IMG/VR virus record: IMGVR_UViG_3300020048_000039
Span: 64,314 to 128,313 of that record
Strand: one strand, 5' to 3'
DNA: 64,000 nt
Source of the DNA: a virus
Both the position numbers and the translations under genes were made by a program. Positions 9,889-22,790 of this stretch are shown in pieces. Position 1 is the stretch's first letter, and each line of letters begins with the position of its first letter. A model generated the notes under the pieces. That model searched no databases and was not told the DNA's origin. It saw only the letters and a list, made by a program, of their open reading frames with translations.

Positions 9889-10521
9889 ATGGAATTTAAA
9901 AAGAAAGACATTGAAGAAATAATCGACACCAATGGAGAATTAATTGGATTAGATGATATACCATCAAACGATGCTAATGCCGACACTGCTGCTCACGGAA
10001 CGACTGACCAAAATGTAAAAATTGGTCAGCAACCGTTCCGATATGATATGTTGGGTCGTTTTGGCTTTAGTATGATGCCTTTTATGGAAGGTAAAGAAGA
10101 TTCTAAGGAAAGAACTGCACTTATAAACGATTTGGCTAAACTTAGTTACGATAATTATATACGTATAATCAGGCATTACTATAAGAACCCAAATAAATTA
10201 AAGGTTGACTATAGGATGCATTCAGAACACAATTTTGAAACACAGCCTGAACATAATATGGAAACTGATTTTGATTTTGCTGATATGATAATGAAAGTTG
10301 TTCAAAAGCATTTCGAAGATGCATTTAAAGAGCCTGAACAAATTGATGAATCTAAAGTTGTTGAGGATAAGATGCTTAACAAAAAGGGTGAAGATGAAAT
10401 AACTGACAAAACAGAAGACATAGGTGTTAGAGAAAAGAAACTCGAAAAGATTGCTGGCTTGATTAACAAATTGGAGAAGAAAGATATAGATAAACTTATT
10501 AATTTATTGGAGAGGAAATGA
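9889..10521 (+). CDS. hypothetical acidic protein, possible internal head protein
   Basis: 210-aa ORF preceded by the GTATTTAT motif, with FME/IDE/VVE motifs. Confidence 0.6.
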   Translation: MEFKKKDIEEIIDTNGELIGLDDIPSNDANADTAAHGTTDQNVKIGQQPFRYDMLGRFGFSMMPFMEGKEDSKERTALINDLAKLSYDNYIRIIRHYYKNPNKLKVDYRMHSEHNFETQPEHNMETDFDFADMIMKVVQKHFEDAFKEPEQIDESKVVEDKMLNKKGEDEITDKTEDIGVREKKLEKIAGLINKLEKKDIDKLINLLERK

Positions 10522-11450
10522 GAAAATTAAATACGTGCGAATTTATTAATAAAGCATTTGCTATGTATGGTAATAAATATGATTACTCCTTAGTAAATTA
10601 TGTGAACTCAAAAACAAAGATAAAAATTATTTGCTCAAAACATGGCACATTTGAACAAACGCCAAATAGCCATTTATGTGGATGTGGGTGTCCTAAATGC
10701 GGAGATTTATTAGTTAGTGAAAAAAAATGTGAAGATACAGACCATTTTATTAGTAGGGCAATTGAAAAACATGGTCATAAATATGATTATTCGTTAGTTG
10801 ATTATATTAATGTAAAAAGTTTTATCGTAATAATTTGTTGTGAGCACGGTAAATTTTCACAGCGAGCAAATGACCATTTAAATGGAAAGGGTTGTCCTAT
10901 ATGTGGAAAAATTTTAAAGGGAATTAAAATAAGAAAGAATACTGATTATTTTATTAATGAAGCAAAAAAAATTCATGGCAAGAAATATAATTATTCGAAT
11001 GTTGACTATGTAAAAAGTAAAATAAGCGTAAGCATCATATGTTCAAAACACGGTATGTTCAATCAAAAACCGAATGACCATTTAAATGGAAAAGGCTGTC
11101 CAACATGTTGTGAGTCCAACGGAGAAAATAAAATAAGAACTTTTTTAAATGAAAATAATATTAAATATATTAAAGAGAAAAAATTCAGTAATTGTATTAA
11201 CGTTAAAGAGCTTCCTTTTGATTTTTATCTTCCAGAATACGATGTTTTAATTGAATTTGATGGAGTGCAGCATTTTAATCCCATTAATTATTTTGGTGGA
11301 ATTGATGCATTAAATAATCAAATTATTAATGATAAAATAAAAAACGATTTTGCGAGAGTAAATAATTTTCATTTACTTCGAATACGATTTGATGAAATAA
11401 ATGAAATTAATAAAATCTTAAATACATATGAACCAATATTTAAAAGATAA
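10518..11450 (+). CDS. free-standing homing-endonuclease-like protein: 3 Zn-ribbon repeats + PD-(D/E)XK (Vsr-like) domain
   Basis: Repeats F I.KA...G.KYDYS.V.Y...IIC.KHG.F.Q....HL.G.GCP.C; C-terminal LPFDFYLP....LIEFDG.QH. Confidence 0.8.
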   Translation: MRKLNTCEFINKAFAMYGNKYDYSLVNYVNSKTKIKIICSKHGTFEQTPNSHLCGCGCPKCGDLLVSEKKCEDTDHFISRAIEKHGHKYDYSLVDYINVKSFIVIICCEHGKFSQRANDHLNGKGCPICGKILKGIKIRKNTDYFINEAKKIHGKKYNYSNVDYVKSKISVSIICSKHGMFNQKPNDHLNGKGCPTCCESNGENKIRTFLNENNIKYIKEKKFSNCINVKELPFDFYLPEYDVLIEFDGVQHFNPINYFGGIDALNNQIINDKIKNDFARVNNFHLLRIRFDEINEINKILNTYEPIFKR

Positions 11451-12177
11451 AACCTATAGGATACCACCAGATGTATTAAGGGGTATTAGTGTAGCCAAAG
11501 CGTCCACTTCAAATGGAAGTGGTCTTAAAAGAGCTAATTTTCTGCTTAAAAATGGTGTTATAACCTATCAAGCAATGAAAAGACTTAAGAATTATTTTGA
11601 TTATCACGACCCACAAACTGATGATAAAAATGAATATGCTCTTGCTGGTGGTGAATTAATGAAAAGCTTCATTCAAACAACACTTAATCAAGACCGTGCA
11701 GGTATAAAAAGGACTGTAGATACAAAGCGTGAAGCTATGCCTATCATGAACGAAGCCGAAAAGAAGAAAAAAGAAAAACCAGTTAAAAATGCCTGTGCTA
11801 TTATTGTTGACAAAGACAATAAAATATTGCTATTGAAACGAGCAGATATTGGTGAAATGTGGATGCCAAATAAATGGGCATTAGTTGGTGGTGGTGTTGA
11901 GAAAGGCGAAACACCTTTACAAGCGGTTGAGAGAGAAATTAAGGAAGAAACTGGTTTAGAAATCAAGAAATTTATTAGTTCATTTAATTTACAACTAAAC
12001 AGTACTAATAGTATTGAGTATATGTTTGTTTGTAGATTTGAAGGCGACCCAACCGAAGTGAATCTAAATCAAGAGAACATAAGATATGGCTGGTTTAGTA
12101 CTGGTGAAATGGATTATTTGGATACAGTCCCACATTTATTGGAATATATTACAATTGCTTTTAAAAGTTATGAGTAA
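11428..12177 (+). CDS. unknown N-terminal domain fused to a Nudix hydrolase
   Basis: Complete Nudix box GGVEKGETPLQAVEREIKEETGL; IMNE linker before the Nudix domain. Confidence 0.85.
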   Translation: MNQYLKDKTYRIPPDVLRGISVAKASTSNGSGLKRANFLLKNGVITYQAMKRLKNYFDYHDPQTDDKNEYALAGGELMKSFIQTTLNQDRAGIKRTVDTKREAMPIMNEAEKKKKEKPVKNACAIIVDKDNKILLLKRADIGEMWMPNKWALVGGGVEKGETPLQAVEREIKEETGLEIKKFISSFNLQLNSTNSIEYMFVCRFEGDPTEVNLNQENIRYGWFSTGEMDYLDTVPHLLEYITIAFKSYE

Positions 12178-13406: not shown

Positions 13407-14093
13407 ATGGCAGATAAGATTAATTTAAATAGACTTAAGGATGAAATAGATAACCGTAAAAGGGAAAAGGGCATGGTTACGACCAACTCGAATGGTGTTA
13501 GCACAACTATGCCAGCACGTGATACCTTCCTAAACGGATTACTTGAATCATTCCAAACGGGTAGAGATACACGTTCATCGGTGGTGGTTAAAGAAGTGGT
13601 AAATAAGGTTGCTGAAAAAGCAGGTGAAACTGCACCAATACGTCAACAAGCTAACCTACCAATTCAGAATCATTCACAACAACCACAGAGAATATCAGAA
13701 GCAGACATGTCTGGTGTTGAAAGAGACGAACAATTGTTTCTTGACTTGCAAAAAAGGAGAAGCCTGACGTTGGCTGAATCAATTCAGGATTATTCTAAGA
13801 TTCCTAATGTTGGTGCTCCAATGAATACTCAACCAACAACCAATATGGGTGGTGGTATGATGATTAATGAAGCATATTTGACTGAGAATGTTAAAAATGT
13901 GGTTAACAATTACTTGGCTGAGAATTTCGGTCCCATCATCGAAGAATCCATTAAGAGTACAATTCTTGAAATGTATGCTCTTGAGAGAATTAAAACAGTC
14001 TTAGCAGAAAACAAAGATATGATTCGAGGGGTGGTGAAAGAAGTCATACAAGAAATTAGTGATAGAAATAAAGCAAGGAAAGCGCAATCTTAA
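13407..14093 (+). CDS. putative prohead core/scaffold-like protein
   Basis: Helical, many (I/L)xE motifs (ISE, LAE, INE, LTE, IEE, ILE, IQE); preceded by the GTATTTAT motif. Confidence 0.45.
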   Translation: MADKINLNRLKDEIDNRKREKGMVTTNSNGVSTTMPARDTFLNGLLESFQTGRDTRSSVVVKEVVNKVAEKAGETAPIRQQANLPIQNHSQQPQRISEADMSGVERDEQLFLDLQKRRSLTLAESIQDYSKIPNVGAPMNTQPTTNMGGGMMINEAYLTENVKNVVNNYLAENFGPIIEESIKSTILEMYALERIKTVLAENKDMIRGVVKEVIQEISDRNKARKAQS

Positions 14094-14109
14094 TTGCGCT
14101 TTTTTTTTT
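14079..14109 (+). terminator. intrinsic terminator
   Basis: aaagcgcaat-ctta-attgcgcttt followed by a T-run. Confidence 0.85.
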
Positions 14110-14121
14110 ACCTTTAATTCT

Positions 14122-14130
14122 GTATTTATA
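14122..14130 (+). promoter_or_regulatory. GTATTTAT motif upstream of the polyprotein
   Basis: Directly after the terminator, 18 nt before ATG 14149. Confidence 0.65.
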
Positions 14131-14148
14131 TATAATTAATATGGAATT

Positions 14149-17100
14149 ATGGCAATTTATAAGATAATAAAACCCATCGAAGAACTCTATAACAATGCAG
14201 ATGGTAATGATGATATTCTTTCAGATATTGGAACTACTGCCGAAGTTAGAATGGGACACACAATAACTCCAGATAACACAGTAAATGAGTTTGGCGGTGA
14301 TTCATTGTATTCACACGATGATAGTATTGGTGATGACGAATTTCCTGCTTATAATAATGCAGACTCTTCACCTTCAATAGAGAACAACCTAAATGCCAAT
14401 TCTGCAATGTATAATGAAGACTTGGAATATAATCATGTTAGTGATGCAACCCAAGACACATACGTAATAGGTGAAGAATTTCTTGGCACTGATAAGCGTT
14501 TTGAAGATGAATTTGAAATCTTTAAAAATCCCAAATCAATTAAAAACCTAAGAAAAGACATTAAAGGGATTATCGATATGAAAACTGGCGATTTTTATGT
14601 TGCCAACTATAATATGATGTTACATATTGATTTAGCACGATGGTTAAATGTGAAATTAGGTTTTAATATTCCCGAAAAATGGAATGATTTGTATGATGGT
14701 ACTACATACTTAGCAGTACAGAGACGCAAGGATTCTAATATTTTTGGTTTATCAGAAGTTTATACATATGAAGATTATAATATGGATGACTATGAAATCG
14801 AAAGAATCATAAGTGCATTTGAAAAAGCAAACCAAAAAAATCCTACAATAGAATTTAGTCTTGAGGGTATTGAAAGAAAAACTAAGCCAGAACCTGTTGA
14901 TGCATTAGATGAAAGAGTATTATCATCAATGGCTGGTAGTTCCAGCGTTGAAGTTAAACAGAAATGTAGATTAGCAGGCAACGGTAACACAAGCACACCT
15001 TGTAATCAGGGTGATATTGGTAATCTCAACATTAAGCCACTAAAAGAAGCATACGTCAATCTTCCATATAATAAAACGTATTGGGGATGGGTTTCACCAG
15101 AGAATCAATTTACACAAGTTCCTGAACTAAAACATGCAGCATTCATCGAAAAAAGATATCCCGACATGTGGGACACCGATAAAATATTCGACAAAGCATT
15201 TGCAGATGGATGGGTAAGAGTAATTTACGAATATTATCCAAATAGATACAAAGGTACGTTATCACTAAATGGTGGTGATGAAGAACGTGTTTTACATGTA
15301 TTAAAAAACATATTTCTTGATAGCATTAGGTGGAGTAATACTACAATTTATTTACAATTTGAGAATCCAAATACTTCACGTGTTTTTAACACTGGTGATT
15401 CAGAGGGTAAAGCAGAATTGGCTAATTATTTAGGTGGACTTAACGAAATAAATGAAGAATCATTGGGTGTTATTGATTATGAAGACGTAGAATTGAACAA
15501 TCCGATTGAAATGTTTAAAAATCCTAAATCACTGAGGAATTTAAAACCAAGCATCAGGGGAATTATTGATGCTGAGACTGGTGATTTATATGCTGCAAAC
15601 ACATCCAACTATTTCCACAATATGTTAATTAAGTGGCTTAATCAAAATGTTGGCACACATTATACTGATAATTATAACTTAATATATAAAAGTCCTGATG
15701 AACTTATTCCAGTCCAAAGAGACCAAAACACCAACGTGTTTAAATTAGGTGAAATGTATCCTACCAATCTTGATAAGGAAATGGAGGGTAGACGTGAAAT
15801 GCTTGCTAAAATAAAAAATGGTTTAGCATTGGCAAAACAAAAGAATCCAAGTATTGAGTTTATACCTCAAACAATCGATAGTATTGAAATGCATGAACAA
15901 TTAAATGAAGAGATTGATGCCAGTGAAGCATATAGAGATGAAGATGGATTGCAAACTATTCTTGATGGAAAACGTAATGTTGGTGGCTATGTAACATATA
16001 ATAGAAAAAATGTTATTCAGATGTTGGAAGATACTGGATTGAACATTCTCCCACTCAGTGATAATCCATATGGCTTAGTAATAGTGTTTAATGATAAAGG
16101 AAGAGAAAATGCAATGAGGTTATGGAAGTTTGCAATATCTAAGGGTGGTTATTTTCAAGATAGTACACCTGATGAAGCACGCTTTATTGGAAAAATGCTC
16201 GAATATACTGATACATCAATAGAAACCTATGTTAATAGAATATACGATGAAAACAGTCAGAGAAGAAAACAATCATTAAATGAAGATTTTGATGATAATA
16301 AATATGTTGCTGTAGTTACACCCGATATGCAATTAATTAAAGGTACTACACACAATGCAATTTTTAAACAATTATTTCCCGATATTGAAGGTTATGCTGA
16401 AAAATATGACCATGCATTCGAAAATGGATATGTTAGGGTTATATGGAATGAAAATGAATATCAGGGTCAACCAATAATACACGCCAGTTTCGAAGGTAAC
16501 AAAGCAAATCTGATTGCTGCCCTTAAAAGATTTTATTATAAAGAGATTATTACGAATAGAAGTAGTGTTAATATCGATATTTTTGAGACAGGTAAAAGTT
16601 TAGGGTTCATCTTACCAGAACAAAAACAGGCATTCAGTGCATTCATGAGTGGATTGACAGAAGATATTGAAGAGGGTGTTGGCGATAAATATGTTGAAAG
16701 AAAATATCATATGCAACCAGAGTTTGACGACTTTGAACAATTATATAGAAACAAGCTCAGTACCGAAGGGCATGACGAAGTTGTGTACGATGATACTAAT
16801 AAGGGTGGTACTTTAAGGATTATTAAGAACCCAAAATCATTGAATAGTGTTGGTGCGGATGTTAGAGGTGTTATAGATAGAGAAGGAAATTTTTATACCG
16901 AACAACGAGTATCTGGAAAGGTACATGTTGCAATTCTTGGTGTGTTGGAAGATTTGGATTTAATTCCAGAAGATTGGGATTGGGGTGAACACTTACCAAC
17001 AGATTTTATCACGGTGCAAAGAAGTAAAGATGAAAATGCTATTTTACTTAGTGAGAAGACCGAAATGATGACACCACCAGAAGAAAGAGACCCTGAATAT

Positions 17101-20100
17101 TATGGAGCAGGGTATTGGGAAAGTTTTCCATCGTATGAAGAAGCATATCCAGAATTTCAGAAATTTATTGATAGAGCTAAAGCAAAGAACCCAAGCATTA
17201 ATTTCATTAATGCAAATATCGTCTATTATGAGGGTAATGGTTCTAAAAATATAAAAGAATATAATAATTTTGATAATGGTGTTGACGGTTTGGAAAATAG
17301 TAGTACCTTTGCAGCCGAAATCCCTGTAAATACCAGTACTGAAATGATGACTGAAAATAAATTAATGTCTTTAAATGATTTACCATTCAAAGCGGATGTT
17401 GAAGCAATGGGGGGTAGTATTCATGCAGTGGGAGGAAGCGTGCGTGATTCATTCTTAGGTAAAGATTCGAAGGATTTGGATGTTCTTATTACTGGTGTTC
17501 CGCTTGATGACTTAGAAAGAATCGTTTCTAAATATGGTCGTGTTGACTCAGTTGGAAAATCGTTTGGTGTACTTAAGTTCATGCCAAATGGTGTAGATTT
17601 AGATGAACCTATTGACATTGCGATTCCAAGGACAGAGAAAATGACTGCTGGTGGTGGTCATAAAGACTTTGACGTAACTTCAGACCATACGTTACCGATT
17701 GAAAGGGATTTAGAACGTAGAGACATTACCATCAATGCAATTGCAAAAGATGCTAACGGTAATATTATTGACCCGTATGGTGGACAGGAAGACCTTAAGA
17801 ATAAAATAATCCGTGCAGTTAATCCACAGGCATTTAGTGATGACCCGCTTCGTATGCTCAGGTGTGTGGGATTTGCAAGTCGTTTTGGCTTTACTATTGA
17901 GCCAACTACAATGAAAATGATTCAGGACACTGCTGATAGAATTTCAGGTATTGCTACTGAAAGATTGTTAATTGAGTTTGATAAAATAATTAAAAAAGGT
18001 AACATTAGACTTGGTGTACAATTATTGAAGGATACTGGCTTATTTAAACATATCTTTGGATTTGACATACAGCAATCAACGATTGATAGAAGTCCGTTTG
18101 AAGAAGTACGTACAATGGGTGAATTTCTATACCTGTTAATACGTTTATCACCAAATCCTGCTGAATTTTACTTGGGTAAGTTTGCAACGGAAGATGCAAA
18201 ACGTGATAAGATATACAAAGAAATTAAGGCATTGGATATTGGTTTGAGTAATCAAAACGATAATCCAATTGCGTTAAGGTCTATTGCACATAACATGTAC
18301 ACGATTGCACCAGAATCTTTAGGTAGTGAAATATTACCAGAAGCACTTGAAATAGCTGCACAGGAATTGTTATCAGGTAAATATCCAAAGACTGTTGGAG
18401 AATTAGCTGTTAATGGAAATGATTTACTTGCAGCAGGTTTGAAGGGTAAAGAGATTGGTGATGCGCAGAGAAAAATGTTATTGAAAATATATTCAGATAA
18501 ACTTCCTAATGATAAGGATTCATTGTTAGCATTATTGGGTAATAATGATTTGGATGAAGCTAATTTAAAGAAAGCAGCAGAAATGGTGCGAAAATATACC
18601 GTAGATGAAAAAAAGGAAGATTTTGATGAAGGTGTTGGTGATAAGTACGCAGAAAGAAAATTTGGTATACCTGATGCTGGTGCTGAGTTTGATACACTAT
18701 ATAGGCAAGCAAAGGCTGTTAGTGGTGAAAAACCAGTGGCATATGTTAATGGTTTTAACACCAAGACGAATGCTAAAGAGCAATCACCAATTTTCTTGAA
18801 TCCAAAATCATTAAACGGATTTGATAATGCAGTACGAGCAATTTCAGATGAAAGTGGTAATTTATATGTGGCGCAAAAGAATTATGGATTTACTCATGGT
18901 GATATATCAGTAGCATTGGGATTTTTTAGAAGTAACTATCAAATATTCGAAAGCTACGATAGATATACAACGTATCATAGAGTAGATGCAATGCCAGCGT
19001 TTGGAATTTCACCAACAAATGAACAATATTTGAAGAAAGGTAATGAAGAAATTGTTGAGAATTTATTAAATGCTGCACGTCAGAAGAATCCACAATATGA
19101 TTTTACGACAGATTACTTTGAGTATGTGAGTGGTAAATACAATGATGAAGTTGGCGTTGATGAAGGTGTTGGAGATAAGTATGCTGAAAAACGTTTTGGT
19201 ATTCCTGATGCTGGTGCTGAGTTCGAAAAGAAGTACCAACAAAATAGATTAGTGATTGACGGTAATGAACCATTTGGTTATGTTAGTGATTTTATTGATT
19301 GGAAAGGTAAAACAAGTCCTGAAAAAGTGCCTGTTTACAAAAATCCAAAATCATTAAGAGATTTTGATTATAATGTAAGGGCAATATCTGATACACAGGG
19401 TAATTTATATGTTGCACTTGTTGACGAAGCATTCAATCATGGCGAAATGGCTGCACATATTGGTTTAATGAATGGTGATGATACTATATATGAGAGAATC
19501 ACTGATTTTCTATTACTAAATAGGGTCAAAGATAAGGATGTGTTTGGATTTGCTGATAGTAGTGAAGAAGAATATAATCAAAGTAATGAAGACCGTAAGC
19601 GTGTTACAGAATTGCTTAACATAGTTAAAAGAAGTAATCCACAATTTAAATTCATCCCAAAGTATTATGAAGAAATTACAGGAGATTTAAATGTTGATGA
19701 AAGTCTTGACGAAACAATAAAAGGTGGTAAATATATCATGTATCATGGTAGTAACCATGCATTCAATAAATTCACTGATGAATTTGTTGGTGGTGAAAGC
19801 GCAAACGACCAAGAAGGTGCTGGAATTTATTTCACAACATCTAAGGAAGAAGCTAATAGATATGGCAAATACATATACAAAGTACAGTTGAAACCAAGGA
19901 AGCTAACTAATATTGCAAACAAAAGATTTGTATCGGTAAGTGATATGACCAAGCTAATTAAAATGTCACCAACATGGAAAGATGATGTCCAAAATTGGGA
20001 CGAAAATATCATAAGAGGACTTGCAATTGCAATAAAAAGCATAATGGAATATTCTGACAATGAAAAAGATTTATTCCAACAGATTGAGCATGACTTCTTT

Positions 20101-20649
20101 AGGTATCAACCGAGATTATATGTTCAAGGAATGACAAAATTGGGTTATGATGGTCAGCTAATTGATAAGGATTATGAGGGTATTGTGCATATCATTGTTT
20201 ACAACCCTGAGATTATCACAATTCTCGAAAGTAATGTTGAAAATACCGAACCAATAAATGAAGAAGAAATGAGTAATATTGCTTATAGTGCTGTTGTGCT
20301 TGATAATGTATCACATCAGAAATTAGTTAAAGTGTTTAAACCTATGATTCCAAAGGATTGGGAAATTCTTGCACATCACATGACATTAAACTTAGGTGGT
20401 ATCGACCCTAAGTTTGAACAGGATTTGGGTCGTGACATTGAATTAAGTGTTGTCGATTATGCTATGGATGATAAAGTAATGGCTGTGGGCGTTGAAGGTT
20501 ATCCAACCAACAACAAGAAAGCACATATTACTATTGCCGTGAATAGAACTGTTGGTGGTAAACCTATGATGTCAAATGATTTAAGTGATTGGAAACCAAT
20601 CGAATTTCCATTACAAATAGATGGAACAATAACTGAAATAGAAAGATGA
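14149..20649 (+). CDS. 2166-aa modular polyvalent protein/polyprotein: repeated unknown domains, CCA-adding enzyme, ART fold, 2H phosphodiesterase
   Basis: Single uninterrupted ORF; domains recognised by motif and separated by hydrophobic-x-E linkers. Confidence 0.88.
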   Translation: MAIYKIIKPIEELYNNADGNDDILSDIGTTAEVRMGHTITPDNTVNEFGGDSLYSHDDSIGDDEFPAYNNADSSPSIENNLNANSAMYNEDLEYNHVSDATQDTYVIGEEFLGTDKRFEDEFEIFKNPKSIKNLRKDIKGIIDMKTGDFYVANYNMMLHIDLARWLNVKLGFNIPEKWNDLYDGTTYLAVQRRKDSNIFGLSEVYTYEDYNMDDYEIERIISAFEKANQKNPTIEFSLEGIERKTKPEPVDALDERVLSSMAGSSSVEVKQKCRLAGNGNTSTPCNQGDIGNLNIKPLKEAYVNLPYNKTYWGWVSPENQFTQVPELKHAAFIEKRYPDMWDTDKIFDKAFADGWVRVIYEYYPNRYKGTLSLNGGDEERVLHVLKNIFLDSIRWSNTTIYLQFENPNTSRVFNTGDSEGKAELANYLGGLNEINEESLGVIDYEDVELNNPIEMFKNPKSLRNLKPSIRGIIDAETGDLYAANTSNYFHNMLIKWLNQNVGTHYTDNYNLIYKSPDELIPVQRDQNTNVFKLGEMYPTNLDKEMEGRREMLAKIKNGLALAKQKNPSIEFIPQTIDSIEMHEQLNEEIDASEAYRDEDGLQTILDGKRNVGGYVTYNRKNVIQMLEDTGLNILPLSDNPYGLVIVFNDKGRENAMRLWKFAISKGGYFQDSTPDEARFIGKMLEYTDTSIETYVNRIYDENSQRRKQSLNEDFDDNKYVAVVTPDMQLIKGTTHNAIFKQLFPDIEGYAEKYDHAFENGYVRVIWNENEYQGQPIIHASFEGNKANLIAALKRFYYKEIITNRSSVNIDIFETGKSLGFILPEQKQAFSAFMSGLTEDIEEGVGDKYVERKYHMQPEFDDFEQLYRNKLSTEGHDEVVYDDTNKGGTLRIIKNPKSLNSVGADVRGVIDREGNFYTEQRVSGKVHVAILGVLEDLDLIPEDWDWGEHLPTDFITVQRSKDENAILLSEKTEMMTPPEERDPEYYGAGYWESFPSYEEAYPEFQKFIDRAKAKNPSINFINANIVYYEGNGSKNIKEYNNFDNGVDGLENSSTFAAEIPVNTSTEMMTENKLMSLNDLPFKADVEAMGGSIHAVGGSVRDSFLGKDSKDLDVLITGVPLDDLERIVSKYGRVDSVGKSFGVLKFMPNGVDLDEPIDIAIPRTEKMTAGGGHKDFDVTSDHTLPIERDLERRDITINAIAKDANGNIIDPYGGQEDLKNKIIRAVNPQAFSDDPLRMLRCVGFASRFGFTIEPTTMKMIQDTADRISGIATERLLIEFDKIIKKGNIRLGVQLLKDTGLFKHIFGFDIQQSTIDRSPFEEVRTMGEFLYLLIRLSPNPAEFYLGKFATEDAKRDKIYKEIKALDIGLSNQNDNPIALRSIAHNMYTIAPESLGSEILPEALEIAAQELLSGKYPKTVGELAVNGNDLLAAGLKGKEIGDAQRKMLLKIYSDKLPNDKDSLLALLGNNDLDEANLKKAAEMVRKYTVDEKKEDFDEGVGDKYAERKFGIPDAGAEFDTLYRQAKAVSGEKPVAYVNGFNTKTNAKEQSPIFLNPKSLNGFDNAVRAISDESGNLYVAQKNYGFTHGDISVALGFFRSNYQIFESYDRYTTYHRVDAMPAFGISPTNEQYLKKGNEEIVENLLNAARQKNPQYDFTTDYFEYVSGKYNDEVGVDEGVGDKYAEKRFGIPDAGAEFEKKYQQNRLVIDGNEPFGYVSDFIDWKGKTSPEKVPVYKNPKSLRDFDYNVRAISDTQGNLYVALVDEAFNHGEMAAHIGLMNGDDTIYERITDFLLLNRVKDKDVFGFADSSEEEYNQSNEDRKRVTELLNIVKRSNPQFKFIPKYYEEITGDLNVDESLDETIKGGKYIMYHGSNHAFNKFTDEFVGGESANDQEGAGIYFTTSKEEANRYGKYIYKVQLKPRKLTNIANKRFVSVSDMTKLIKMSPTWKDDVQNWDENIIRGLAIAIKSIMEYSDNEKDLFQQIEHDFFRYQPRLYVQGMTKLGYDGQLIDKDYEGIVHIIVYNPEIITILESNVENTEPINEEEMSNIAYSAVVLDNVSHQKLVKVFKPMIPKDWEILAHHMTLNLGGIDPKFEQDLGRDIELSVVDYAMDDKVMAVGVEGYPTNNKKAHITIAVNRTVGGKPMMSNDLSDWKPIEFPLQIDGTITEIER
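17356..18558 (+). other. cca: class II tRNA nucleotidyltransferase (CCA-adding/PAP family) domain in the polyprotein
   Basis: AVGGSVRD..LG...KDLD; ERRDITINAIA; DPYGG..DL...IIRAV; FSDDPLRMLR...FASRFGF; ERL..EF; C-terminal LAVNGNDL...GKEIG. No HD domain. Confidence 0.88.
19714..20268 (+). other. ADP-ribosyltransferase-fold domain (polyvalent-protein type) in the polyprotein
   Basis: MYHGS...GAGIYFTTS..EA.RYG..IYKV.L...LGYDG..I...HIIVYNP. Confidence 0.7.
20269..20649 (+). other. 2H phosphodiesterase domain (tRNA-ligase CPDase-like) at the polyprotein C-terminus
   Basis: YSAVVLD, then two HxT motifs (AHHMTL at about 20371, AHITIA at 20521), then GGKPMMSN. Confidence 0.8.
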
Positions 20650-20739: not shown

Positions 20740-21657
20740 ATGACTACGGATAATAAAATAAAGAGACTCCAAGTTTTTGATTTTGATGGCACATTAGCCA
20801 ATAGCCCAATGCCAGAAGATGGAAAAAAGAAATGGGGAGAGTTTCATGGTAAACCTTTTCCACATAAAGGATGGTGGGGTAGACCAGAAAGTTTAGACTT
20901 AGGTGTGTTTGACATTAAAATGTTTCCAAGCGTGCTTAATCAGTTGAAGCGTGAAGTTTCAACGCCTGATACGTATGTGATTATTCTCACATCACGTATG
21001 GAAAAACTACGTCCACAACTCAAAGCAGTTCTGGATGCAAACGCTGTTCATGTCAACGCACTTGATATGAAGCACAATGAATTAACGAAAGGTGAAAAAA
21101 TCTTGCGTTATATCGACCATTTACCTGACTTGGAAGAAGTAAGTGTTTATGACGATAGGGAAGGTGACATTGCATCTTATCAGGCAATAAGAAACAGAAT
21201 ACCAGAAGGTATTTCTTTTAATATTTATTTGGCTGATAGTGGTAAGTTTGGATTAGTTGAAGTGGAAAATAATGATAAGCTAACACATATTATTATGGAA
21301 GAAATTATAAACTTTGCTGATAGTGGTGAAATTTATCATGGGACACATGTTGGTGCAGCCATTAGTATTCAGCGTAATGGTGGAATGAAACTCAACACCG
21401 AACCATATATTTCTTTCACAAGTAAACCAAGTGTTGCAAAGTATTATGCTGAAATGAAAGGTGGTAGGGATAGGGGGATTATTTTGAGAACACAATTAAC
21501 CAACGATTTTAAACAATCACCAAAATTTGATAAAAAGGATGGTTATGAGTGGATAACAACACGTGAAATCCCATCAAGTGAGTTAGAGGTTATGACTTCA
21601 CAAGGCTGGATTCCATTAAATAAATGGGACTTTATTGATAAAGAAATTAAGACATGA
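20740..21657 (+). CDS. HAD phosphatase (Swiss-army-knife RNA-repair-like) fused to an ART-fold domain
   Basis: VFDFDGT, IILTSR, TKGEK, VYDDREGD; after the IIMEE linker, IYHGT...YISFTSKPSVAKYYA...GIILR...YEW. Confidence 0.78.
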   Translation: MTTDNKIKRLQVFDFDGTLANSPMPEDGKKKWGEFHGKPFPHKGWWGRPESLDLGVFDIKMFPSVLNQLKREVSTPDTYVIILTSRMEKLRPQLKAVLDANAVHVNALDMKHNELTKGEKILRYIDHLPDLEEVSVYDDREGDIASYQAIRNRIPEGISFNIYLADSGKFGLVEVENNDKLTHIIMEEIINFADSGEIYHGTHVGAAISIQRNGGMKLNTEPYISFTSKPSVAKYYAEMKGGRDRGIILRTQLTNDFKQSPKFDKKDGYEWITTREIPSSELEVMTSQGWIPLNKWDFIDKEIKT

Positions 21658-22025
21658 GAAAAATTTTAATTGCAGAGGACAATGAAATGAATTACAATCT
21701 ATTTTTATTAATGTTAAAGGACATTTTGAATATTATCATACTTCATGCTAATGATGGTAACGAAGCCATTGAACTCTGTGATTTAAATCCAGATATTTCG
21801 TTGGTATTAATGGATATTAACATGCCTAATATGAATGGTGAGGCTGCTGCTGTTGCAATTAAATTATCACACCCTAATATTCCAATTATATCACAAACAG
21901 CATATTCGATTACTGGAATGGTTAGTGAAGAAAATAGGTGGTGCTTCGAAGATTTTATTTCGAAGCCGATTGATAGTTCTTATTTAAAAAAACTTGTTAA
22001 GAAATATTGTCCAGATGAAAAATAA
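21654..22025 (+). CDS. single-domain response regulator receiver (CheY-like)
   Basis: ILIAEDN, LVLMDINMPNMNG, IPIISQTAY, FISKP; all five canonical receiver residues present. Confidence 0.9.
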   Translation: MRKILIAEDNEMNYNLFLLMLKDILNIIILHANDGNEAIELCDLNPDISLVLMDINMPNMNGEAAAVAIKLSHPNIPIISQTAYSITGMVSEENRWCFEDFISKPIDSSYLKKLVKKYCPDEK

Positions 22026-22055: not shown

Positions 22056-22790
22056 GTGGGAAAGAAATCAACAAAAGAAGAGTTTATTAAAAATGCTGTG
22101 AATATACATGGCAATAAATTTGACTATTCTAAAGTTGAATATATTGGTAATAAATCAAAAGTTATTATTAGTTGTCCACAACATGGTGAATTTTTACAGA
22201 GACCTAATGACCATTTAAGTGGATATGGGTGTAAAAAATGCCAATACTTTAAGACATCGAAAGAAAATAAATTTACTAATGATGAATTTATTGGTAAGGC
22301 AAGTAAATTACATAATAATAAATTCGATTATTCTTTAGTTGTATACGATGGATATGAAAAAAAAATAAAAATTATATGTAAAAAACATGGAATTTTTGAA
22401 CAAACTCCACATAGTCATTGGAGTGGCGCAGGTTGTCCTTCATGCTCCGAATCTCGTGGCGAAAAGAAAGTTGCAGAAATTCTAACTGAAAATAATATTA
22501 AATTTGTCAGAGAATTAACTTTTAGCGATTTAAAAGATAAATCTAACTTATTTTATGATTTTTATTTACCAGAACACAAATTATTTATTGAATATCATGG
22601 AATACAGCATTGTCGAAGCGTTGATTTTTTTGGTGGAAAGAAAGGATTGGTTGAGACAAGAAAACGTGACATAATCAAATATAAATATGCGATAAATAAC
22701 GGTTATAAGATAATCTGGATATTTAATATTCCACCAAATAATTTAAATGAAATATTAACAAAGAAATTGAAAGAAATATCAATAATATGA
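22056..22790 (+). CDS. Zn-ribbon repeat + PD-(D/E)XK homing-endonuclease-like protein (2 repeats)
   Basis: Paralogous to 10518-11450; CPQHG...HLSGYGC..C; FYDFYLPEH..FIEYHG.QH. Confidence 0.78.
   Translation: MGKKSTKEEFIKNAVNIHGNKFDYSKVEYIGNKSKVIISCPQHGEFLQRPNDHLSGYGCKKCQYFKTSKENKFTNDEFIGKASKLHNNKFDYSLVVYDGYEKKIKIICKKHGIFEQTPHSHWSGAGCPSCSESRGEKKVAEILTENNIKFVRELTFSDLKDKSNLFYDFYLPEHKLFIEYHGIQHCRSVDFFGGKKGLVETRKRDIIKYKYAINNGYKIIWIFNIPPNNLNEILTKKLKEISII

What the first reader, a model, noticed from the sequence alone, without database searches (positions are those of the whole stretch)
14479..19713. Five divergent copies of an unrecognised NPKS domain with invariant Asp, Gly, His and Arg
Seen: copies at about 14479-14913, 15460-15912, 16675-17259, 18631-19164 and 19165-19713. 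They share (K/L)NPKS-x(6-7)-(R/K)(G/A)(I/V)(I/S)D-x(2-3)-G(D/N)(L/F)Y ... H ... (Q/H/N)R ... (K/S)NP-x(2-3)-F. Sequence between the motifs has diverged strongly. Inference: conserved polar residues suggest an enzymatic or nucleotide-binding fold, and the diversified paralogues suggest an arms race, each copy addressing a different host target or signal.
Basis: partly seen in the sequence, partly recalled or inferred. Interest (0 to 1): 0.7.

Follow-up and report, generated by a model that had tools for sequence, protein, structure and literature searches.

The report
New repeated domain in phage toolkit protein
Five old, diverged copies of an undescribed ~150-residue domain sit inside one 2166-residue multi-enzyme protein of an uncultured large phage; the domain belongs to a big family found only in uncultured phages, matches no known family or fold, and its unchanging Asn-Pro, Arg, Gly, His and Arg residues point to a catalytic or ligand-binding site whose function is still unknown.

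Summary
All five copies lie in one ORF (14149-20649, +, 2166 aa). That ORF also carries a CCA-adding tRNA nucleotidyltransferase, an ART-PolyVal ADP-ribosyltransferase and a 2H phosphoesterase, so it is a phage polyvalent protein.

A profile of the five copies finds 728 protein clusters among 1.84 billion. Members occur as solo ~150-200-aa proteins, as tandem solo genes and as arrays of up to six copies. They are often fused to, or sit beside, CCA-adding enzyme, ART-PolyVal, 2H, NUDIX and GNAT domains.

- **No known family:** no Pfam, PHROG or PDB sequence match, and no hit in 50,697 GenBank phage records.
- **Conservation over 249 copies:** N 0.99, P 1.00, R 0.92, G 0.99, H 1.00, R 0.98. The Asp is only 0.76.
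- **Leader:** most units begin with E|GVGDKYAEKxFxIP, with Glu at -1 in 92%.
- **Age and turnover:** the paralogues are old and have positional orthologues. Copy number in the syntenic slot varies from 1 to 5, and one cassette is swapped exactly at the leader.

My best reading is an autonomous effector module with a catalytic or phosphate-ligand site, possibly freed by cleavage after Glu. Function is unproven. The scan noted this domain before on other DNA.

The parts
14149..20649 (+). One ORF of 2166 aa: a polyvalent protein. Order: N-term - NPKS1 - X1 - NPKS2 - X2 - NPKS3 - CCA - NPKS4 - NPKS5 - ART-PolyVal - 2H.
14467..14919 (+). NPKS copy 1 (aa ~107-257). Its leader is degenerate (EE|FLGTDKRFEDEF).
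   Evidence: E 1.4e-56
15448..15942 (+). NPKS copy 2 (aa ~434-598). Its leader is degenerate.
   Evidence: E 1.2e-62
16675..17253 (+). NPKS unit 3: leader GVGDKYVERKY after IEE, then the core from 16759.
   Evidence: (E 6.6e-58)
18631..19164 (+). NPKS unit 4: leader GVGDKYAERKF after FDE, then the core from ~18724. This cassette is swapped relative to the L006 orthologue.
   Evidence: (E 3.2e-61)
19165..19734 (+). NPKS unit 5: leader GVGDKYAEKRF after VDE, then the core from ~19261. It is 85% identical to the L006 orthologue and was used for the pLDDT-89 model.
   Evidence: (E 1.7e-64)
15079..15468 (+). X1: first copy of a second internal repeat (aa ~311-440, 'GWVRVIY').
   Evidence: E 2.7e-7 against X2; homologues in L006 and L017
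16303..16683 (+). X2: second copy of that repeat (aa ~719-845). It gives a weak Tox-ART-HYD1 hit (E 0.058).
17425..18561 (+). Class II CCA-adding tRNA nucleotidyltransferase module: PolyA_pol head plus RNA-binding neck at aa 1093-1305, with body and tail to ~1471.
   Evidence: E 1.6e-20 and 4.1e-15; phrog_2244, E 6e-60
19723..20217 (+). ART-PolyVal ADP-ribosyltransferase domain.
   Evidence: 38.5 bits, cut-off 31.2; phrog_25279, E 6e-22
20281..20589 (+). 2H phosphoesterase-like domain with HxT-type motifs HHMTL and AHITIA.
   Evidence: tRNA_lig_CPD, E 0.0027, below cut-off; phrog_36523; relatives hit 2_5_RNA_ligase2 and Acb1
14082..14109 (+). Terminator-like hairpin (GCGCAAT/ATTGCGC plus T10) at the end of the upstream gene.
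   Evidence: read directly
14123..14130 (+). TATTTATA promoter-like box 19 nt before the ATG. The same box precedes at least 13 other genes in the window.
20740..21657 (+). Downstream gene resembling HAD_SAK_1 / polynucleotide-kinase-phosphatase. It is syntenic in L007.
11428..12177 (+). Upstream NUDIX hydrolase gene in the conserved flank. NUDIX is fused to NPKS proteins in other phages.

Best explanation
The NPKS stretch is a real, undescribed domain family, comparable to the 'LPD' domains of phage polyvalent proteins.

**Anatomy (shown or predicted).** The unit has two parts. The first is an optional two-helix leader that starts G-V-G-D-K-Y-A-E-K-x-F-x-I-P directly after a Glu. The second is a ~120-residue alpha/beta core. 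Its predicted six-stranded sheet has order 1-3-2-4-5-6 with flanking helices. The core is built around Asn-Pro after strand 1, Arg at the start of strand 2, a Gly hairpin, His at the N-terminus of the first core helix, Arg at the end of strand 4, and a second Asn-Pro before the last strand.

**Function (inferred).**
- Each unit is an autonomous effector, because the same unit exists as solo proteins.
- The unchanging polar site catalyses a reaction on, or binds, a common phosphate-bearing ligand. Candidates are a nucleotide-derived signal or an RNA or tRNA 3' end.
- The variable remainder sets specificity.

**Deployment (inferred).** Phages deploy several old paralogues together with CCA-adding, 2H, NUDIX, ART and GNAT enzymes as a mix-and-match toolkit. 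In the polyprotein the units are probably separated by cleavage after the Glu that precedes the leader. This would resemble T4-type prohead-protease processing of capsid cargo.
For: **Shown**
- Five significant copies in one ORF.
- A family of 728 clusters. The listed top-150 proteins carry 1 to 6 copies.
- 45 solo proteins of <=215 aa, and tandem solo genes in L008, L009 and L014.
- Conservation over 249 copies: N 0.99, P 1.00, R 0.92, G 0.99, H 1.00, R 0.98. No copy has lost the site.
- Confident model: pLDDT 89.2, pTM 0.83.
- Fusion partners among 45 long members: CCA in 14-15, ART-PolyVal in 11, 2H families (three overlapping Pfam models, 3-4 members each), NUDIX in 3, GNAT in 3. A second set of 35 agrees.
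- In L008 two solo NPKS genes are directly followed by a solo CCA gene.
- Leader: Glu at -1 in 130 of 141. A stricter pattern that includes the Glu is followed by NPKS in 152 of 153.
- Cassette swap: identity to L006 resumes exactly at E|GVGDKY and drops after LDE|A.
- Phages carrying solo units have T4-type head genes. G001 has Gp23 (E 2e-67). G001 and G002 have the gp21-type protease Peptidase_S77 (G002: E 4.9e-10, 35.7 bits, one in-frame TGA). L010 has a T4-type portal next to an NPKS gene.

**From the literature**
- T4-type and giant-phage prohead proteases cut after Glu. T4 Alt is cut at ITE-6 and LTE-619 (PMC5694885).
- T4 internal proteins are diverse defence proteins that share only a capsid-targeting leader (PMC3012670).
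- Polyvalent proteins are predicted to be injected and processed. Repeated paralogous predicted-enzyme domains (PBECR x4) have precedent (PMC5512222).
Against: - No biochemical or proteomic data exist.
- No structural or sequence relative gives a chemistry.
Covariation places the His-adjacent and Arg-adjacent columns near the D/E-S motif and the C-terminal Asn, but at modest rank and with some geometric tension.
- The domains are acidic, which argues against broad RNA binding.
- The Glu at -1 may simply be part of the motif. Position -3 is hydrophobic in only ~57% of cases. phi-x-E is common in this Glu-rich protein.
- No prohead protease, portal or Gp23 was found in the 39%-complete contig of this phage.
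- In this lineage the gene sits among replication-type genes (PolB, NUDIX, HNH), not head genes.
- Five partial contigs with solo units show no CCA enzyme, including one that is 70% complete. A dedicated link to CCA is therefore not obligatory.
Confidence: 0.42

Rival explanations
1. NPKS is a non-catalytic capsid-internal or ejection protein module. It would be the counterpart of T4 internal proteins or of the paralogous inner-body proteins of giant phages. In this reading it serves to load itself and fused enzymes into the prohead, or it acts as a stoichiometric inhibitor of host defence proteins. The conserved residues would then be structural or would contact a phage partner.
For: - Short N-terminal leaders end in phi-x-E before the conserved motif. 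Examples are MKILE|G, MKYLKRFE|G and the 'IIKEEI' type, which the polyprotein's own N-terminus MAIYKIIKPIEE resembles.
- T4-type head genes occur in carrier phages.
- Tandem arrays of diverged solo genes recall the variable T4 internal-protein loci (PMC3012670).
- The domains are acidic.
Against: - 98-100% conservation of His and Arg across ~25%-identical copies is unusual for inhibitors that would face different targets.
- In this contig the leader and the GVGDKY motif occur only on NPKS units, not on other candidate cargo.
- No packaging evidence exists.
Confidence: 0.22
2. NPKS is an accessory substrate-recognition or end-processing domain of the phage CCA-adding enzyme. It would stand in for the HD domain of E. 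coli Cca, with each paralogue presenting a different damaged tRNA end.
For: - Of 47 CCA modules in family proteins, 25 are followed and 24 are preceded by NPKS.
- L008 has the operon solo-NPKS x2 then CCA.
- 2H, HAD and NUDIX enzymes are nearby.
Against: - The data set was selected by NPKS, so adjacency is biased.
- About half of the family is solo, and NPKS-only arrays are common (99 single, 31 double, 9 triple).
- Contigs with solo units lack CCA.
- The surface is acidic.
- NPKS is also fused to ART, NUDIX or GNAT without CCA.
Confidence: 0.12
3. NPKS is a self-cleaving module. The invariant Asn-Pro after strand 1 would undergo Asn-mediated autocleavage, as at the N|PTH site of FlhB/EscU, and so help to dismantle the polyprotein.
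For: - Asn-Pro is 99-100% invariant and lies in a loop right after the first strand of a small alpha/beta domain.
- The resemblance to NPTH is recalled from general knowledge only.
Against: - Solo proteins need no dismantling yet keep the motif.
- No FlhB or EscU structure appears among the fold hits.
- The position after Pro is variable (K 0.69).
Confidence: 0.04
4. NPKS is a structural virion repeat or an inert spacer.
For: It is repeated, and it lies in a protein of a class predicted to travel with the virion.
Against: - No match to any structural or virion family in Pfam, PHROG, PDB or BFVD.
- The core is compact and confidently folded, with conserved polar residues.
- It exists as solo cytoplasmic-type proteins.
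Confidence: 0.03

Closest known systems
LPD domains (large polyvalent-protein-associated domains) of phage and conjugative-element polyvalent proteins (Iyer, Burroughs, Anand, de Souza, Aravind 2017, PMC5512222)
   Same: - A globular domain of unknown function that occurs mainly inside multi-domain phage proteins carrying ART-PolyVal, 2H and GNAT domains.
- It also occurs as solo proteins.
- It has strongly conserved polar residues, like the 'potentially enzymatic' LPDs.
- Its architectures are mosaic.
   Different: - It matches none of the LPD models held in Pfam.
- That paper does not mention CCA-adding enzymes in polyvalent proteins.
- The host proteins here lack the MPTase peptidase domain.
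PBECR predicted-RNase domains repeated in Helicobacter prophage polyvalent proteins (PMC5512222)
   Same: Several diverged paralogous copies of one small, putatively catalytic domain lie in one polypeptide. They are extensively duplicated and rearranged between relatives, giving dozens of architectures.
   Different: - No sequence hit to PBECR1-5.
- No barnase, RelE or EndoU chain appears among the fold-search rows shown.
- The secondary-structure order differs.
T4 internal proteins IPI-III and Alt, with their capsid-targeting leader and gp21 processing (PMC3012670, PMC5694885)
   Same: - Small, diverse proteins with a short N-terminal leader ending in Glu.
- Carrier phages have T4-type portal, Gp23 and gp21-type protease.
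- Alt is an ADP-ribosyltransferase cargo, and ART-PolyVal is fused here.
   Different: - A conserved 14-residue motif and a conserved folded core follow the putative cut site, whereas T4 internal proteins share only the leader.
- Neither packaging nor cleavage has been shown.
Multifunctional tRNA-end repair proteins: E. coli-type Cca with an HD phosphohydrolase domain, and 'Swiss-army-knife' RNA repair proteins (Pfam HAD_SAK_1 context)
   Same: A CCA-adding enzyme is joined to end-healing enzymes (2H here, with a HAD-type gene next door).
   Different: NPKS is not an HD, HAD or 2H domain and has no shown phosphoesterase activity. It also occurs without any CCA enzyme.

Membership tests
Phage polyvalent proteins (Iyer et al. 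2017), applied to the host ORF | Many unrelated effector-type domains in one polypeptide encoded by a phage | tested here: met
   2166 aa with CCA-adding, ART-PolyVal, 2H, 5 x NPKS and 2 x X domains on an IMG/VR virus contig.
Phage polyvalent proteins (Iyer et al. 2017), applied to the host ORF | A hallmark domain of the class, such as ART-PolyVal, scoring above the curated threshold | tested here: met
   PF18760 scores 38.5 bits against a cut-off of 31.2, E 2.5e-9.
Phage polyvalent proteins (Iyer et al. 2017), applied to the host ORF | Built-in processing peptidase (MPTase-PolyVal). This is frequent in the class but not obligatory. | tested here: not met
   No peptidase family in the Pfam scan at E<=1.
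Phage polyvalent proteins (Iyer et al. 2017), applied to the host ORF | Delivery into the host together with the DNA (virion packaging) | not testable with these tools
   This needs virion proteomics. Only indirect hints are available.
Pfam-held LPD families (LPD1 to LPD39), applied to the NPKS domain | Sequence match to the family HMM | tested here: not met
   No LPD family for the full protein at E<=1. None recurs among the 50 rows of A3 (45 solo proteins plus the five window copies) at E<=1, nor among 45 long members at E<=1e-4.
LPDs not deposited in Pfam (defined only in the 2017 FTP supplement) | Match to the authors' alignments | not testable with these tools
   The supplement is not held.
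T4-type capsid-targeted cargo (internal proteins, Alt) | Short N-terminal leader ending in a phi-x-Glu prohead-protease site | tested here: inconclusive
   Glu at -1 of the GVGDKY motif in 130 of 141. Position -3 is I, L, V, F or Y in ~57%. The Glu could instead be part of the motif.
T4-type capsid-targeted cargo (internal proteins, Alt) | A gp21-type prohead protease encoded by the same phage | tested here: inconclusive
   Found in G001 (E 2.9e-31) and G002 (E 4.9e-10), which carry solo units. Not found in this phage's contig, which is 39% complete.
ADF-H/gelsolin-like and NFACT-R (DUF814) folds | Significant structural superposition | tested here: inconclusive
BECR/PBECR metal-independent RNases | HMM match to PBECR1-5, or a barnase/RelE/EndoU-like fold | tested here: inconclusive
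   No Pfam hit. No such chain appears among the fold-search rows.
Known nucleotide-signal sponges and phosphoesterases (Tad, Acb2, macro, 2H, HD, PHPT1) | Sequence or fold match | tested here: inconclusive

The most novel reading that the evidence does not exclude
NPKS is a new-fold family of phage counter-defence effectors. These would be enzymes or high-affinity binders acting on phosphate-bearing immune signals or on damaged or modified tRNA 3' ends. They would be shipped as arrays of specificity paralogues, cut apart after Glu by the head protease, and delivered with the DNA.
Probability: 0.25. Interest if true: 0.8.

Novelty: new variant of a known kind. Interest (0 to 1): 0.55.

Why it matters
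- **Scale.** The family is large (728 clusters at 50% identity) and appears in none of 50,697 GenBank phage records searched, nor in PHROGs. It is absent from Pfam, PHROGs and the PDB.
- **Structure.** A high-confidence model has no structural neighbour.
- **Likely chemistry.** The residue pattern looks like that of an active or ligand site.
- **Company it keeps.** It travels with enzymes already tied to phage-host conflict over tRNA ends and nucleotide signals: CCA-adding, 2H/Acb1-like, NUDIX, ART and GNAT.
- **Payoff.** Finding its ligand or reaction could reveal a new counter-defence chemistry.
- **A testable by-product.** The Glu-leader boundary is a concrete handle on how polyvalent proteins lacking their own peptidase are dismantled.

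Tried and rejected
- **Family libraries.** Pfam and PHROG scans of the whole protein, of the 50 rows of A3 (45 solo proteins plus the five window copies) and, for Pfam, of 45 long members found no family for NPKS.
- **PDB by sequence.** Profiles of 5 and of 50 sequences gave only chance hits, E>=0.07.
- **Fold searches.** Two models were searched with Foldseek PDB, Foldseek BFVD and VIA-align wide. Nothing was significant.
- **ESM Atlas.** Only unnamed viral clusters came back, and no structure search was possible.
- **GenBank phages.** megablast of the ORF and tblastn of copy 5 and of P0082 gave no match.
- **Bacterial genomes.** Presence in bacterial genomes is therefore untested.
- **Gene context.** Gene context on the 330-400-kb contigs that carry P0008, P0021, P0126 and P0166 could not be read.
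- **Recent in-place duplication.** Rejected by the tree.
- **General RNA-binding repeat.** Disfavoured by the acidic pI.
- **GVGDKY or 'IIKEEI' leader as a general cargo tag in this phage.** Not supported. In the 128-kb contig both occur only on this protein.
- **Mean-field DCA.** Run on 253 copies (Meff 230). It recovered strand pairings but could not settle whether the invariant residues cluster. Couplings between invariant columns are artefacts.
- **Head genes in this phage's contig.** Peptidase_S77, Portal_T4 and Gp23 were not found, but the contig is only 39% complete.

Full report
**Where it lies**

The window is the second half of a 128,313-bp IMG/VR virus contig that CheckV rates 39% complete. 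That implies a phage of roughly 300 kb. GC is about 0.32 and nearly all genes are on the + strand. All five reported stretches lie in frame in a single ORF, 14149-20649 (+), of 2166 aa.

Pfam and PHROGs recognise three parts of this protein:
- a class II CCA-adding tRNA nucleotidyltransferase: aa 1093-1305, PolyA_pol E 1.6e-20, RNA-binding neck E 4.1e-15, phrog_2244 E 6e-60
- an ART-PolyVal ADP-ribosyltransferase: aa 1859-2023, 38.5 bits against a cut-off of 31.2
- a 2H-phosphoesterase-like C-terminus with two HxT-type motifs

The protein is therefore a phage 'polyvalent protein' in the sense of Iyer et al. 2017 (PMC5512222).

Neighbouring genes include PolB, two HNH homing endonucleases, a NUDIX hydrolase, a HAD_SAK_1/PNK-like gene and a receiver domain. 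A terminator-like hairpin (14082-14109) and a TATTTATA box (14123-14130) precede the ORF.

**Observation check**

Piecewise BLASTP links all five copies, with E-values from 1e-4 down to 3e-28. Their alignment (A1) shows invariant N-P-K-S, D, G, Y, H, G, R, N-P and F at 27-38% identity to copy 1. An HMM of the five finds exactly these five places in the contig. The starts given for copies 3-5 are the first Gly of a conserved leader, GVGDKYAE(K/R)xF, so they mark real unit boundaries.

There is also a second internal repeat, here called X1/X2 (aa ~311-440 and ~719-845).

**The family**

The five-copy profile finds 728 clusters at 50% identity in 1.84e9 proteins. Of these, 415 have E<=1e-10 and 51 have E<=1e-30.

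Among the best 150 proteins:
- copies per protein run 1 (85 proteins), 2 (50), 3 (11), 4 (2), 5 (1) and 6 (1)
- lengths run 125-2235 aa
- 45 are solo proteins of <=215 aa

In IMG/VR the domain occurs in three settings:
- solo genes
- tandem solo genes (L008, L009, L014)
- large ORFs with 1-4 copies (L006, L017, L019, L021, L026)

All sources are metagenomic and all names are 'hypothetical protein'. Neither copy 5 nor a solo member hits any of 50,697 GenBank phage records by tblastn.

Over 249 aligned copies the conserved residues are:

| Residue | Fraction |
|---|---|
| Asn of NPKS | 0.99 |
| Pro of NPKS | 1.00 |
| first Arg (VRA/VRG) | 0.92 |
| hairpin Gly | 0.99 |
| His | 1.00 |
| second Arg | 0.98 |
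| Asp | 0.76 |
| second Asn-Pro | 0.84 / 0.88 |
| two Phe | 0.88 each |

**Is it a known family or fold?**

No Pfam or PHROG model covers it. This holds for the whole protein, for the 50 rows of A3 at E<=1, and for 45 long members. PDB sequence searches with both profiles give only chance hits.

Two AlphaFold models were made. One used five sequences (pLDDT 76.5). The other used 50 sequences for unit 5 with its leader (pLDDT 89.2, pTM 0.83). The good model has two leader helices followed by beta-beta-beta-alpha-(alpha)-beta-beta-alpha-alpha-beta-alpha.

Structural searches found nothing significant:
- Foldseek against PDB: nothing below E 0.7.
- Foldseek against BFVD: nothing below E 0.012, at TM 0.26.

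These values are below what the tool's own notes call a typical best score for unmatched models.

Mean-field DCA on 253 copies (Meff 230) recovers a sheet of order 1-3-2-4-5-6. It gives modest couplings linking the column before His and the column before the second Arg to the D/E-S motif, and linking the second Arg to the C-terminal Asn. The result is inconclusive.

**The leader and the cut-site idea**

Solo proteins start with a short leader, for example MKILE, MKYLKRFE, or an 'IIKEEI'-type helix. This is followed by GVGDKYAEKxFxIP, a second helix and then the core. The polyprotein's own N-terminus (MAIYKIIKPIEE) resembles the 'IIKEEI' leaders.

Key counts:
- The residue before the motif is Glu in 130 of 141 cases. 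Position -3 is I, L, V, F or Y in about 57%.
- A stricter pattern that includes the Glu is followed by an NPKS core in 152 of 153 cases, and once by a CCA module. About 62% of cores have the motif upstream.
- In this contig the motif occurs only at the three units of this protein.

Literature context: T4-type and giant-phage prohead proteases all cleave after Glu. T4 Alt is cut at ITE-6 and LTE-619 (PMC5694885). T4 internal proteins are diverse anti-defence proteins that share only a capsid-targeting leader (PMC3012670).

Carrier phages of solo units do have T4-type head genes:
- G001 has Gp23 (E 2e-67).
- G001 and G002 have the gp21-type protease (G002: E 4.9e-10, 35.7 bits, one in-frame TGA).
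- L010 has a T4-type portal next to an NPKS gene.

For this phage's own contig none of these genes was found, but 61% of the genome is missing. I treat cleavage after the Glu as a reasonable hypothesis, not a result.

**Evolution**

In a FastTree of 249 copies the window's copies form three old lineages: 1+2, 3, and 4+5. Inter-copy distances are 1.3-3.9. Each copy has a much closer positional orthologue elsewhere, at 0.18-0.86.

Against the closest relative, L006, identities are:

| Module | Identity to L006 |
|---|---|
| NPKS5 | 84.7% |
| ART | 83% |
| 2H | 77% |
| CCA | 62% |
| NPKS4 | 39.6% |

The low-identity block begins after '...NNDLDE|A' and ends exactly at 'E|GVGDKYAEK'. This is a cassette swap at unit boundaries.

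Related phages L007, L017 and L021 share the flanking genes (PolB, NUDIX, three small genes, then downstream genes). In the same slot they carry proteins of 491, 2381 and 1292 aa with 1, 3 and 3 NPKS copies. More than 50 architectures occur among about 200 family proteins.

The paralogues are therefore ancient and individually maintained, while their combination turns over quickly.

**Function**

Fusion partners among 45 long members are CCA (14-15), ART-PolyVal (11), 2H families including Acb1-like (three overlapping Pfam models, 3-4 members each), NUDIX (3) and GNAT (3). A second set of 35 gives the same picture. In L008 two solo NPKS genes directly precede a solo CCA gene.

On the other hand:
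- Five partial contigs with solo units have no CCA enzyme, including one that is 70% complete.
- NPKS-only arrays are common.
- The domains are acidic: median pI 5.5, and 4.6-4.9 for the window copies.

Taken together, I read NPKS as an autonomous effector unit. Its invariant Asn-Pro/Arg/Gly/His/Arg constellation would form a catalytic or phosphate-ligand-binding site, and its variable remainder would set specificity. It is deployed with tRNA-end and nucleotide-directed enzymes.

This is an inference at about 0.4-0.45 confidence. The rivals are an internal-protein-like cargo or inhibitor module, a dedicated CCA accessory domain, an Asn-Pro self-cleaving module, and a structural repeat. They are listed with their tests in the rival explanations.

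**Comparison and novelty**

The host protein is a member of the known polyvalent-protein class. The NPKS domain behaves like an LPD of that class, and like the multiply repeated PBECR domains described there. It matches no deposited LPD model and none of the 50,697 GenBank phage records searched.

The scan has noted the same domain before on other DNA: e1-5368849 and e1-5368853 (first-reader notes, another genome) and e1-3474631 (two copies of an unknown fold).

I rate it a new variant of a known kind, of moderate-to-good interest. It is a large, structurally unmatched family with an apparent active site, and no function is known yet.

Noticed in passing
window 999-62258 (e.g. 1392, 12183, 13377, 14123, 22034, 24054, 27456, 37701, 39523, 58734, 62251): The box (g)TATTTATA lies 12-45 nt upstream of the start codons of at least 13 + strand genes. 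Genes behind it include the polyprotein, a baseplate-region gene and a virion structural protein. Its complement TATAAATA gives 24 matches against 14.3 expected, and no shuffle reached 24. It is probably a phage promoter class.
   Followed up: partly
window 15079-15468 and 16303-16683: A second internal repeat (X1/X2, 'GWVRVIY/GYVRVIW') alternates with NPKS copies 1-3. X2 and a solo neighbour gene in L014 (5457-5972) both give weak Tox-ART-HYD1 hits (E 0.058 and 3.3e-4). It may be a divergent ART-like domain.
   Followed up: partly
L007, L017, L021 compared with window 6170-26468: Flanks are conserved and syntenic: PolB, a 210-aa gene, NUDIX, three small genes, then a ParB-like gene and a glycosyltransferase. 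They enclose a hypervariable slot holding polyvalent proteins of 491 to 2381 aa. In L007 and L017 the 2H domain is a separate gene.
   Followed up: partly
L006:3640-8568 and L006:8567-12460: The closest orthologue of the 2166-aa protein is read as two abutting ORFs in different frames (1643 + 1298 aa). This could be a frameshift, a sequencing error or a true split just before the CCA module.
   Followed up: no
window 10518-11450 and 22056-22790: Two paralogous HNH/treble-clef homing-endonuclease genes (phrog_559, E 3e-76 and 1.8e-57) flank the block that contains the polyprotein.
   Followed up: no
window 21654-22025: A stand-alone response-regulator receiver domain gene (PF00072, E 1.8e-16) lies in the phage, directly after the HAD/PNK-like gene.
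   Followed up: no
window 1-64000: ARAGORN finds no tRNA gene in the window, although the phage encodes a complete CCA-adding enzyme. The other half of the contig was not scanned.
   Followed up: partly
L030 (G002:C1:132144-132554, - strand): The gp21-type prohead protease match in G002 contains one in-frame TGA.
   Followed up: no
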